From NCBI RefSeq assembly GCF_988242995.1, contig NZ_OZ547043.1: DNA of 64,000 nt; one strand, 5' to 3'. Position 1 is the stretch's first letter. Every line of letters begins with the position of its first letter. The position numbers were made by a program. Shown in pieces: positions 25,701 through 28,700 of this stretch.

Positions 25701-28700
25701 TACCTGTCGGGCGAGCGCCTTTTAGATCAGAAGTCAACGTTACATGGTCGGCATCTGTCGTAGCGCTTCCCCCTTCCGAATAGAGCCACGGAATGGTTCC
25801 CTGGAAAATATTGGTTTCGCCGCTTTCGACCCAGGCGCTTTCTTCCGCCAGCGCCACAGGTGCCACACAATAACCTGCCAATGCCAGCGCCAATGCGATC
25901 CGGGTCAGACCGCGTCTTTTATCCTGCTTCATTGATGCTCTCCTTAATGAACCTTCAGCGACTGGCCGACTGGCCTTACGCCAATCTTATTTTTTGGTAT
26001 ACAGCACGCGTAAACCGTATCCCTGCAAGCCATCTCCCGCTTGTGCGCCATAGGTTTGCGCTGCTTCGCGGTTAGTGGCCGGAATCACAATGTCCTCATT
26101 GGAAGTGTTCGCCTGTGCACCCACTTCACCATTGATGCTCTTGCCGGTAAATTCCCACTTGTAGTCGTACTGCGCCATCTCTTCGTCAGTCAGTTTTTCG
26201 ACCTGCTGGAAGACACCGTCTTTATTGCTGTCACGCCACAAAACAAATCGATAAGTGTTGTTGAGCGGCAGCGGTTCTTTATCTTTACCTATCAGGTTGC
26301 TGGGTTTAGCTGCCCCCACACGATAGATAAATGCATTTAGCCCACCAATTTCTGCCCCGAGGAAAGTGACATCCACATAGTTACTGTCGTCGTAGGGCGC
26401 AGCTTTTGCTTTCCAGCGATAGGTGCCGGGTAAGGTACTGGAGAGGGTGACAGTGCCCTTTTCTTTATCTTGTTTAGCGATAAAAACGCAGGGGTTGTCG
26501 GTCGAGCAAGGCTTGTTGGTTAACGTCACTCGTTTGTCCTGCGCGTCGTAAAGCTGCGGCGTGAGGTTATCTTCCGGCAGCGCATCGCCATTGCGGTCGG
26601 TGTTATCGCCAAAGCTGTCGGTTACATCGAGATCCATCACCACACCATCAACGCCATCTGCCTGAGCGCTGGCTTCGTGGCTGTGGTTGTTCTCTTCCGG
26701 CACGTTCGCGATGTTATTAACAATCAACTCTATTTTACGGTCCTGCTGAACGGTGATTTCCACCACGCCAGAGTTCTGTCGGTTGCCCTTTTCATCTTCC
26801 AGTGCCAGACGTACTCGCCAGGTATTGAGTTTTTCTTGTTCGGCTTTGTCAGAGCTGTACTGCCAGGCGGGCAGCACCAGGTTCCAGTGGTTATTGTTAC
26901 CCTCTGTCAGGGTATTCTCTTTGATAACCGGCATAACCAACGTGCGGGCAGCATTGTTTTTCGCCTGCCATGACGCAGCGACAATTTTGTAGTGGTGGTT
27001 GATAAGCGCGTTAATGGTCCATTTACATTTTTCCAGCCCGACGGCCGCTTCGGGAGTGTCCTTAATGACGCACTCAGGGTGCTCGTTGGTGGCATCCGCT
27101 TTTAACCACAGGGTGACATCAAGCGGATCTTTTTCTTTGTATTCCAGAACAATAAAGTTATTACGCTCAACAAAATCATGACGACTGCCCATCAACGAGT
27201 GAGCCGCTTTCACTTTATCGCTATCCAATTGATCTTTTAGCGGAACGCCGAACTGATAATTAAGAGTGGCATTAATGCTGACATCGCTGTTATCTCCGGT
27301 CCCCGCTTTATAGTCCGCCCCAACGGTTAGTAATGGCACCGGTTGATAATTCAGTCCAAGTGTTACCGCGTAGGGATCTTTCTCCAAATTATCCGTACCA
27401 AAAAGGGCGACTTCATCGCCGTAATATTGCTCGAAGACAACTTTGCCCCCCAGTTGCGGATAAGAAGGTAACCAGGCTTCGGCACGAATATCCCAGCCGC
27501 GCGCAGGGCGTTCTTCATAAAAGTCGAAATCTTCAGAGTCTTTCCAGTCAGAAAGCGGATGATAATAGTTGCCAGAGAATTTTAAATAATCAGTCCACGC
27601 TTCGCCGCCTAAACCTAAACGGCGATGTCCTCGGGTAAAATCATAATCATAAAATATATTTCCGCCCAATAACCATTCATCAAAATTATGTCTTACCCCA
27701 AGACCAATATTCCCGATTGTACGATCTTCTTTTCGTTGCGCAGAAAATTGACTGAAATAAACAGTGGTTTGATTATCGTACCAGGGAACAAAATAATCGA
27801 TGGAACTACCATCCAGATCGCCGTCCTGGCCAATGGAGAGGTTCGAACGGACCTTACCGTAGGGAGAGAGTGTGTCTTCAATATAAGATTGTGCGGTTGA
27901 GGTGATTTGACTTTGCAGATAGCTTCTGGCCTGAGATTCCAGCGCCTCAGGGGTCAAGTTTTCAAACCCTTGCGTGGCGGAGTTGATGACGTAATCGGCT
28001 CCGCGCTCTTTCAGCGATTTACCCTTGTTGGTTTGTTCATCCTGCTGTGCTGCCTGGCTACCTAAATCAGGTAACGATTCGTTTTGCTTAACATTTATCT
28101 CTGGTGCCGCGAAAGCAGCACCAGAGATAAATGTTAGCATAATACAGCGTTTCCATCGCAGCATGCACTTTCCCTGTGACAATGATACAGTCAAAAATAA
28201 GCTTTAATATTGTATCCCTGATTATTCAGAAAGGCATGTCATAAAGAATAAATATATTCTTAATTATTTAAATTAGTGATTTCACTCAATTACATTAGTT
28301 ATTCCACTAATAACAGATTGTTTTACCATTCACATATTAAATATAAATGATAAAACAATATATTCACATGATATTAAGCAATAACAAATTCAACGCGTTT
28401 TTTAGATATTAAATCGTGCCCATGTTGGCAGAAATAATCCACAGCACCACAAGCTTTTAACACTTGTAACGGCTGATGACACTCAGGGCAAAGTGCCTGG
28501 ACGGTAAAGTCTTTGTCGCAAGTTGCACAGTGGGCAGTCTCGCCATTGCGTTCGAGAGGGGTTTTGCAGGTTGGACAGTTGAGTGCCATAAATACTCCTC
28601 GCGCGTTATTCGGTTTCCCTTTCCGTGTGGAAAGGGAAACCAGATAAGTGATTACTTACTTTTCTTGATATGCTTCATCAGGCGCTTACGCTTGCGCATC

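What the first reader, a model, noticed from the sequence alone, without database searches (positions are those of the whole stretch)
28612..28641. Perfect 13-bp-arm palindrome between der and yfgJ
GGTTTCCCTTTCC gtgt GGAAAGGGAAACC lies in the 62-nt spacer between the der stop and the yfgJ start on the same strand, with no U-tract after it. It therefore looks less like a terminator and more like an intercistronic RNA stem-loop (stability or processing element) or a protein-binding site that could uncouple yfgJ from the essential der gene.
Basis: seen in the sequence. Interest (0 to 1): 0.3.

Follow-up and report, generated by a model that had tools for sequence, protein, structure and literature searches.

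The report
Hairpin capping the der message
The palindrome is real and most likely forms an RNA hairpin that marks and protects the 3' end of the der message while letting some transcription continue into yfgJ, which is a common and already described kind of bacterial element.

Summary
There is a perfect 13-bp inverted repeat with a 4-nt loop at 28612-28641, inside the 62-nt der-yfgJ spacer on the minus strand, with no T-run on either side.

It is not a conserved sequence but a conserved position for a hairpin:
- 67 of 81 Enterobacterales der loci have a clean hairpin of -12 kcal/mol or better within 70 nt of the der stop.
- It is usually a canonical terminator with a T-run. The T-run is mostly absent when yfgJ starts within 70 nt.
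- The K-12 haplotype carries an unrelated 14-bp palindrome at the same place. Published 3'-end mapping (TRS, PMC10687069) puts the primary der 3' terminus 6-9 nt after it, with partial read-through, and a second 3' end on the opposite strand.
- In window-type genomes the common variants are A-to-G changes. These keep G.U pairs in the der-sense RNA only.

Best reading: a U-tract-less 3' stem-loop of the der mRNA, acting as an exonuclease barrier or weak terminator. This class was described by Dar and Sorek (2018). There is no support for a protein-binding site. The element is ordinary and of low interest. Its in vivo behaviour in this allele is inferred from K-12, not measured.

The parts
28612..28641 (-). 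Core hairpin. In the minus-strand RNA it reads 5' GGUUUCCCUUUCC-ACAC-GGAAAGGGAAACC 3': a 13-bp perfect stem with a 4-nt loop, about -22 to -24 kcal/mol.
28606..28647 (-). Possible imperfect extension of the stem (19-nt arms, 89% complementary). It is not part of the minimum-energy fold of the sense RNA.
28652..30124 (-). der (ribosome-biogenesis GTPase). The stop codon UAA at 28652-28654 lies 10 nt upstream of the hairpin. The 28652..30124 span is inferred from the 1473-nt der annotated in RefSeq relatives.
28590..28651 (-). The 62-nt der-yfgJ spacer. No sigma-70-like promoter and no canonical terminator were detected in it.
28603..28606 (-). Predicted zone of the der mRNA 3' end, 6-9 nt after the stem. 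This is inferred by analogy with the K-12 allele and has not been measured.
   Evidence: K-12 mapping; inference for this allele
28595..28600 (-). Shine-Dalgarno sequence of yfgJ (GAGGAG), 5 nt before the AUG and 11 nt 3' of the stem. The hairpin does not sequester it.
28374..28589 (-). yfgJ, a 71-aa double zinc-ribbon protein (PF07191). It is the gene that receives the read-through transcription.

Best explanation
The palindrome is transcribed as the first structured element of the der 3' UTR, starting 10 nt after the stop codon. It folds into a stable 13-bp RNA hairpin that defines and protects a 3' end of the der (bamB-der) message. It is the positional counterpart of the der terminator in other Enterobacterales, but it has no U-tract. 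RNA polymerase is therefore not stopped efficiently, and part of the transcription continues into yfgJ, which has its own unsequestered Shine-Dalgarno sequence. Transcripts cut or terminated further downstream are most likely trimmed back 3'-to-5' by PNPase or RNase II until the stem blocks them. This leaves a der mRNA that ends a few nucleotides after the hairpin, so der mRNA stability is uncoupled from whatever lies downstream.

Shown here: the hairpin exists and is stable, a hairpin recurs at this position across relatives, natural variants preserve pairing in the sense strand only, and a 3' terminus is mapped at the K-12 counterpart.

Inferred: that this allele behaves like K-12, and that exonuclease blockage rather than hairpin-only termination generates the end.
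For: 1. The structure is real and stable.

2. Position is conserved while sequence is not.
- In 81 der loci (78 from 80 species-representative genomes, two K-12-type and O145 E. coli alleles, and the window), 67 have a clean hairpin of -12 kcal/mol or better within 70 nt of the der stop. The median offset is 13 nt.
- The median z-score of the 70-nt fold is -2.9 against dinucleotide shuffles, and 50 of 81 have at most 1 of 100 shuffles as stable.
- The looser scan found a hairpin of -13.5 kcal/mol or better in all but two.

3. The U-tract depends on context.
- 37 of 51 loci without an adjacent yfgJ have at least 5 T in the 9 nt after the GC core.
- 12 of 30 loci with an adjacent yfgJ do.
- The count is 5 of 21 when the spacer is 70 nt or less and 7 of 9 when it is longer.
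- Mann-Whitney p = 6.5e-4; Fisher p = 0.005.

4. The K-12 haplotype carries an unrelated palindrome, GCCATTCCCTCTA-TGAA-TGTAGAGGGAATGGC, at the same place.
- TRS 3'-end mapping in MG1655 puts the 'Primary' der 3' terminus at 2635822 or 2635825, which is 6-9 nt after that stem.
- The longest U run there is 2 and the signal R is 0.58-0.69, where R = 1 minus read-through. Canonical terminators in the same table score 0.93-0.99.

5. Variants within the window's haplotype.
- The 5' arm is invariant.
- The common changes are A-to-G in the 3' arm. These keep the sense RNA at -23 to -24 kcal/mol through G.U pairs, while the antisense fold drops to -15 to -19.6 kcal/mol.
- The perfect DNA palindrome is a minority form. 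Only 49 of 1686 genomes are at least 99% identical over this stretch.

6. Dar and Sorek (PMC6061677) describe this class in E. coli.
- They found stable stem-loops without U-rich tails at steady-state 3' ends, protecting against PNPase and RNase II.

7. No sigma-70-like promoter was detected for yfgJ in the der 3' end or the spacer. This fits yfgJ depending on read-through.
Against: - There is no transcript-end data for this allele. All in vivo evidence comes from a non-homologous hairpin in K-12.
- The curated Term-seq list of Adams et al. has no 3' end at the K-12 site. Nothing was found in the TERMITe or SMRT-Cappable-seq supplements either. The end is therefore not among the strongest in the cell.
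- No Rho-dependent region was reported on the der strand near the K-12 site. What creates the downstream ends to be trimmed is unknown.
- The sense-strand wobble pattern rests on only three transitions. About 1 in 8 would do this by chance. Two other variants (a T insertion in O145 and A-to-T in L006) weaken the stem slightly.
- The association between the T-run and yfgJ adjacency is not corrected for phylogeny.
- The promoter scan is crude. A preprint attributes differences in yfgJ expression between isolates to predicted promoter variants upstream of yfgJ.
Confidence: 0.62

Rival explanations
1. It is a weak, non-canonical intrinsic terminator. The hairpin itself makes RNA polymerase release the der transcript 6-9 nt downstream without a U-tract, possibly helped by NusA or NusG, so the 3' ends are true termination products rather than trimmed ones.
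For: - The K-12 3' termini lie 6-9 nt after the stem on the der strand and 7 nt after it on the other strand. This is the classical distance for intrinsic termination.
- The hairpin occupies the position of the canonical der terminator in relatives.
- No Rho region is reported on the der strand in K-12.
Against: - Established knowledge, restated: E. coli RNA polymerase needs the U-rich tract to pause and release.
- The tail here is GAAUAACGC, with 1 U in 9.
- The consensus terminator scan finds nothing.
- The same 6-9 nt distance fits where 3' exonucleases are known to stall. That last point is from my own knowledge and was not tested.
Confidence: 0.17
2. It is a 5' element of the yfgJ message. 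A promoter or an RNase cleavage site just upstream makes the hairpin the 5' cap of yfgJ mRNA, protecting it from 5'-end-dependent decay or tuning its translation.
For: - U-poor hairpins are concentrated where yfgJ starts within 70 nt.
- The hairpin ends 22 nt before the AUG and leaves the Shine-Dalgarno sequence free.
- yfgJ expression across E. coli isolates is associated with cis k-mers and predicted promoter variants in this upstream region.
- This role could coexist with the 3'-cap role for der.
Against: - A hairpin follows der at the same distance whether or not yfgJ is present.
- No promoter-like site was found on the minus strand in either allele.
- The K-12 site is mapped as a 3' end, and no 5' end data were found.
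Confidence: 0.12
3. It is a DNA-level site: an operator for a dimeric DNA-binding protein, or a cruciform or recombination site at the edge of the sinH island.
For: - The palindrome is perfect in this strain.
- The haplotypes diverge right at the der stop, and islands integrate just downstream of der in some strains.
Against: - The arm sequences differ completely between haplotypes and genera while the hairpin persists.
- Most genomes of this same haplotype have one or two A-to-G changes. These break the DNA symmetry but keep RNA pairing on the sense strand.
- It is single-copy, with no related copies elsewhere.
- There is no Rfam or repeat-family match.
Confidence: 0.04
4. It is a chance palindrome with no function.
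For: - Only a few independent substitutions are available within the haplotype.
- Some variants weaken the stem without obvious consequence.
Against: - The expected number of such perfect repeats in the whole window is about 0.008.
- An equivalent hairpin is present at this position in most of 81 loci, including non-homologous ones.
- The K-12 counterpart coincides with mapped 3' ends on both strands.
Confidence: 0.05

Closest known systems
U-tract-less protective 3' stem-loops of E. coli mRNAs (Dar and Sorek 2018, PMC6061677)
   Same: Both are energetically stable stem-loops just after a coding region and are not followed by a U-rich sequence. At the K-12 counterpart, steady-state 3' ends map immediately downstream. 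That paper anticipates the evolutionary switch between U-rich and U-poor versions, and it is seen here across genera.
   Different: In that study the ends were tied to Rho-dependent termination downstream. Here a translated gene (yfgJ) starts 22 nt after the stem, and no Rho region is reported on the der strand in K-12. The source of the downstream ends is therefore unclear.
Canonical Rho-independent (intrinsic) terminators
   Same: Both are GC-containing hairpins a few nucleotides after the stop codon. This hairpin occupies the place where most Enterobacterales have a textbook der terminator, for example AAGCCCGC...GCGGGCTTTTTT.
   Different: There is no U-tract (1 U in 9) and no A-tract upstream. 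The consensus scan finds nothing. The K-12 counterpart shows substantial read-through, with R of 0.58-0.69.
Intercistronic stabilising hairpins such as REP elements (for example malE-malF). This comparison is recalled from my own knowledge.
   Same: Both are stem-loops between two co-oriented genes that could protect the upstream segment from 3' exonucleases and set the ratio of neighbouring gene products.
   Different: This is not a REP. It is single-copy, has no REP consensus, and has a different sequence in every lineage.
The der 3' terminus of E. coli K-12 in the TRS data set (Bar et al. 2023, PMC10687069)
   Same: It has the same genomic position (between der and yfgJ) and the same architecture: a 13-14 bp stem, a 4-nt loop, and no U-tract.
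   Different: The sequence is unrelated (GCCATTCCCTCTA versus GGTTTCCCTTTCC). It lies 21 nt rather than 10 nt after the stop. In K-12 the convergent xseA gene also makes use of the other strand (plus-strand 3' end at 2635869, Rho region at 2635920). In the window no plus-strand gene lies nearby.

Membership tests
Canonical intrinsic terminator | Stable GC-containing stem-loop shortly after the gene | tested here: met
   13-bp stem with a 4-nt loop, -22 to -24 kcal/mol, 10 nt after the der stop.
Canonical intrinsic terminator | U-rich tract of 7-8 nt immediately 3' of the stem | tested here: not met
   The tail is GAAUAACGC, with 1 U in 9. The terminator scan found 0 sites.
Canonical intrinsic terminator | Factor-independent release of the transcript in vitro | not testable with these tools
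   This needs single-round in vitro transcription.
U-poor protective 3' stem-loop (Dar and Sorek class) | Stable stem-loop without a U-rich tail downstream of a coding region | tested here: met
.
U-poor protective 3' stem-loop (Dar and Sorek class) | Steady-state RNA 3' ends map immediately downstream of the stem | tested here: inconclusive
   This is met for the non-homologous K-12 counterpart, with termini 6-9 nt after the stem. No data exist for this allele. EPEC E2348/69, which is in the same data set, has a different haplotype.
U-poor protective 3' stem-loop (Dar and Sorek class) | Longer 3' tails accumulate in pnp or rnb mutants, or under Rho inhibition | not testable with these tools
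   The list of Rho regions in Adams et al. has none on the der strand in K-12, only plus-strand 2635920. No exonuclease-mutant data were accessible.
REP / repeated extragenic palindromes | Many dispersed copies sharing a consensus | tested here: not met
   There is one place per genome in 1686 genomes. No other copy with 2 or fewer mismatches in a palindromic arrangement occurs in the window.
Any curated RNA family (Rfam 15) | Covariance-model match at or near the gathering score | tested here: not met
   No match overlaps 28590-28651, even at E-values up to 10.
Palindromic operator for a DNA-binding protein | Conserved half-site sequence with dyad symmetry maintained at the DNA level | tested here: not met
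   The half-sites are unrelated between haplotypes and genera. The common variants break the DNA symmetry.

The most novel reading that the evidence does not exclude
The hairpin could be a dual-purpose insulator that evolution keeps re-inventing at this junction. In this reading it caps the 3' end of the essential der message and, after cleavage, also caps the 5' end of the yfgJ message. Swapping the hairpin between haplotypes (K-12 type, sinH type, integrase-island type with a full terminator), together with the A-to-G wobble variants, would then set how much yfgJ is made. That would explain the cis-linked differences in yfgJ expression reported across E. coli isolates. The recurring C/U-rich 5' arm and GGAGGG-like 3' arm in several genera could reflect a sequence-specific partner, such as a 3'-end-binding RNA chaperone.
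Probability: 0.15. Interest if true: 0.35.

Novelty: new member of a known kind. Interest (0 to 1): 0.2.

Why it matters
The element has modest importance. It shows how an essential gene (der) keeps a structured 3' end while its terminator is converted into a pass-through hairpin wherever a small gene (yfgJ) sits directly behind it. It is a natural example of the terminator-type switching proposed from genome-wide 3'-end maps. For annotation it is a reminder that U-less hairpins after stop codons usually mark transcript ends and are not regulatory novelties. The alternative haplotypes at this junction offer a ready-made natural experiment on read-through and on yfgJ expression.

Tried and rejected
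- **Rfam scan** of 28100-29100 at E-values up to 10: nothing overlaps the spacer.
- **Consensus promoter and terminator scans** of the window allele and the K-12 allele: nothing on the der strand.
- **Other 3'-end resources for K-12:**
  - The curated Term-seq list of Adams et al. 2021 has no entry at the site. It has only a Rho region on the opposite strand.
  - The TERMITe and SMRT-Cappable-seq supplements contain nothing at the site.
  - No supplement text is held for Dar and Sorek 2018 or for PMC9023263.
- **EPEC E2348/69** from the TRS study was fetched in the hope that it carried the window's allele. It instead has an integrase island and a canonical terminator right after der, so its data cannot test this hairpin.
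- **A literature search** for 3'-end mapping in B2 or UPEC strains found nothing usable.
- **The first shuffle-based hairpin statistic** timed out. It was replaced by a whole-region minimum-free-energy shuffle test.
- **The automatic single-hairpin picker** misses some obvious hairpins (for example L025, L059, L074) and hides T-runs that it absorbs into extended stems (for example L007, L010, L024). The counts are therefore conservative.
- **Rejected readings:**
  - RNase III site: the 13-bp stem is short, and the 19-bp extension is not in the minimum-energy fold.
  - CsrA site: the GGA motifs lie in the stem, not the loop.
  - Sequestration of the yfgJ Shine-Dalgarno sequence: it is free in the fold.
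Full report
**1. The observation**

On the plus strand, GGTTTCCCTTTCC (28612-28624), GTGT, and GGAAAGGGAAACC (28629-28641) form perfect 13-nt arms, with an imperfect extension to 19 nt.

Both flanking genes are on the minus strand. The der stop codon is at 28652-28654 and yfgJ occupies 28374-28589, so the spacer is 62 nt. yfgJ encodes a 71-aa double zinc-ribbon protein, Pfam PF07191.

In the transcribed strand the RNA reads UAA-UCACUUAUCU-GGUUUCCCUUUCC-ACAC-GGAAAGGGAAACC-GAAUAACGCGC-GAGGAG-UAUUU-AUG. The hairpin is about -22 to -24 kcal/mol. The 96-nt context folds far better than dinucleotide shuffles, with z = -4.2 and 0 of 200 shuffles as stable.

There is no U-tract on either strand. 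The simple consensus scans find no terminator and no promoter. Rfam has nothing here. A perfect repeat of this size is expected about 0.008 times in a random 64-kb window. The element is single-copy per genome.

**2. The sequence is not conserved, but a hairpin at this position is**

E. coli genomes split into haplotypes that diverge at the der stop codon.

| Haplotype | Genomes (of 5426) | What follows der |
|---|---|---|
| K-12 type | about 3650-3670 | unrelated palindrome, then yfgJ, then xseA |
| Window (sinH) type | about 1690-1750 | this palindrome, then yfgJ, sinH, sinI |
| Integrase-island type | not counted (seen in EPEC E2348/69, an E. coli locus L005 and E. albertii) | textbook terminator AAGCCCGC-atatt-GCGGGCTTTTTT |

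The K-12 type has an unrelated palindrome in the same place, GCCATTCCCTCTA-TGAA-TGTAGAGGGAATGGC.

I fetched the der 3' flank from 80 species-representative Enterobacterales genomes and scored the first 70 nt after the stop codon. The results for 81 loci, were:
- 67 have a clean hairpin of -12 kcal/mol or better, at a median offset of 13 nt.
- The median z-score of the fold against dinucleotide shuffles is -2.9.
- 50 have at most 1 of 100 shuffles as stable.

The looser scan found a hairpin of -13.5 kcal/mol or better in all but two loci. The stems differ in sequence from genus to genus.

**3. The U-tract comes and goes with the neighbour**

Counts of loci with at least 5 T in the 9 nt after the GC core:

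| Context | Loci with a T-run |
|---|---|
| yfgJ not directly behind der | 37 of 51 |
| yfgJ within 150 nt | 12 of 30 |
| yfgJ spacer 70 nt or less | 5 of 21 |
| yfgJ spacer longer than 70 nt | 7 of 9 |

Mann-Whitney p = 6.5e-4 and Fisher p = 0.005. Neither is corrected for phylogeny. Additional loci fit the pattern:
- Citrobacter amalonaticus has CCCCCTCCCC-attc-GGGGAGGGG with no T-run.
- E. albertii with sinH has a close variant of the window hairpin.
- Salmonella has a weaker 8-bp stem in a longer, 88-nt spacer.

The simplest reading is that der always ends in a hairpin. Where a short gene must be expressed immediately behind it, the hairpin is kept and the U-tract is lost.

**4. Experimental anchor in K-12**

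TRS mapping of RNA 3' termini in MG1655 (Bar et al. 2023, PMC10687069) lists a minus-strand terminus at 2635815-2635830, annotated as the 'Primary' terminus of der. Its dominant position is 2635822 in one data set and 2635825 in another. The K-12 hairpin lies just upstream and the longest U run is 2. By the MG1655 coordinates these positions are 6-9 nt after the last paired base.

The signal R is 0.58-0.69. R is defined as 1 minus read-through. Canonical terminators in the same table score 0.93-0.99. The end is therefore real but leaky.

The same palindrome also marks a plus-strand terminus at 2635869, 7 nt after the stem. Adams et al. report a Rho-dependent region at plus-strand 2635920, antisense to der. 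This is what the model of Rho termination followed by trimming back to a hairpin predicts for read-through from the convergent xseA gene.

On the der strand, Adams et al. list neither a curated 3' end nor a Rho region. The der end is thus moderate in strength and its mode of generation is open.

**5. Variation within the window's own haplotype points to the sense RNA**

I aligned nine alleles. The 5' arm is invariant. The common changes are A-to-G in the 3' arm: GGAGAGGGAAACC, GGAGAGGGAAGCC, and GGGGAGGGAAACCC in E. albertii. Each change turns a U-A pair into U.G in the der-sense RNA. The sense RNA stays at -23 to -24 kcal/mol, while the antisense fold drops to -15 to -19.6 kcal/mol.

Only 49 of 1686 genomes are at least 99% identical over this stretch, and 1547 are 95-99% identical. 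This argues against a DNA-level or protein-operator role.

The evidence is only suggestive. It rests on three transitions, which would behave this way by chance about 1 time in 8. Two rarer variants (a T insertion in O145 and A-to-T in L006) weaken the stem to about -19 to -20.5 kcal/mol.

**6. Mechanism**

The best-supported explanation is that this is the 3' stem-loop of the der message. Dar and Sorek (PMC6061677) showed that E. coli mRNAs without an intrinsic terminator nevertheless end at stable stem-loops lacking U-rich tails. These stem-loops block PNPase and RNase II, and terminators can change type by gaining or losing downstream uridines. The der locus shows that switch across genera.

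In this allele the hairpin would protect der mRNA while allowing read-through into yfgJ. The yfgJ Shine-Dalgarno sequence (28595-28600) lies 11 nt beyond the stem and is unpaired in the predicted fold. No promoter-like site for yfgJ was detected.

Not established:
- Whether ends arise by weak hairpin-only termination or by trimming.
- Whether the hairpin also serves as a 5' cap for a processed yfgJ message.
- Whether this allele behaves like K-12 at all.

A preprint reports that yfgJ expression differs among E. coli isolates in association with cis variants upstream of the gene. The authors attribute this to predicted promoters. The haplotype swap described here is an alternative or additional cause that has not been tested.

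**7. Comparison with known elements, and verdict**

- It works like a U-poor protective 3' stem-loop or leaky terminator.
- It is not a canonical intrinsic terminator, because the U-tract test fails.
- It is not a REP element, because it is single-copy.
- It is not a member of any Rfam family.

The K-12 counterpart is already listed as the der 3' terminus in a published table. The window's allele is an undescribed member of the same kind. Interest is low, at about 0.2.

The result that goes beyond the original finding is comparative. A hairpin persists at the der 3' end while its sequence turns over, and the U-tract is mostly missing when yfgJ is immediately downstream.

Noticed in passing
window 28651 and downstream (28200-28651); L001, L003, L087: E. 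coli has at least three haplotypes that diverge at the der stop codon: K-12 type (der-yfgJ-xseA, about 3650-3670 genomes), sinH type (the window, about 1690-1750 genomes), and an integrase-island type with a canonical terminator (EPEC E2348/69, an E. coli locus L005, and E. albertii L004). The der 3' flank looks like a recombination or integration hotspot.
   Followed up: partly
L086 47176-47391 (EPEC E2348/69, NC_011601.1 2857176-2857391): In EPEC a yfgJ-like zinc-ribbon gene sits next to xseA at the far end of the sinH/sinI island, while der is followed by an integrase island. yfgJ therefore stays with xseA there, not with der.
   Followed up: no
L084 5832-5863 (K-12 MG1655 2635831-2635862), + strand: The K-12 palindrome also marks a plus-strand 3' terminus at 2635869, and a Rho-dependent region is reported at 2635920 antisense to der. 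This suggests that xseA read-through antisense to yfgJ is stopped or trimmed at the same hairpin. xseA-yfgJ is also listed as an overlapping pair by ExcludonFinder.
   Followed up: partly
window 28089-28136: An inverted repeat with 22-nt arms (95% complementary) and a 4-nt loop lies inside the 5' end of the sinH open reading frame on the minus strand: TAACATTTATCTCTGGTGCCGC / GCAGCACCAGAGATAAATGTTA. It is longer than the palindrome under study.
   Followed up: no
window 24879-24913: A perfect 17-nt-arm AT-rich palindrome with 1 nt between the arms (CATATTTTGCTTAATCC g GGATTAAGCAAAATATG) lies in the spacer between the sinI-like ORF (24955-25932) and the 2680-aa ORF (16792-24834), both on the minus strand.
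   Followed up: no
window 46119-46156 and 46385-46421: Two palindromes have an A-run, a GC core and a T-run (for example CAACAAAAAACCGCC...GGCGGTTTTTTGTTG). They look like bidirectional intrinsic terminators.
   Followed up: no
window 28612-28641; L001, L025, L041, L059, L089, L090: In several genera the der-yfgJ hairpin has a C/U-rich 5' arm and a purine-rich 3' arm resembling GGAGGG or AGAGGG (CCCTCT/AGAGGG, CCCTTTCC/GGAAAGGG, CCTTCTC/GAGAGGG, CCCCCTCCCC/GGGGAGGGG). The canonical der terminators elsewhere are GCCCGC-type instead. This may be shared ancestry or a sequence preference, and it remains unexplained.
   Followed up: no
window 28312-28364: An AT-rich imperfect inverted repeat (24-nt arms, 79% complementary) lies just downstream of the yfgJ stop. 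No canonical terminator was found between yfgJ and sinH, so where yfgJ transcripts end in this haplotype is unknown.
   Followed up: no
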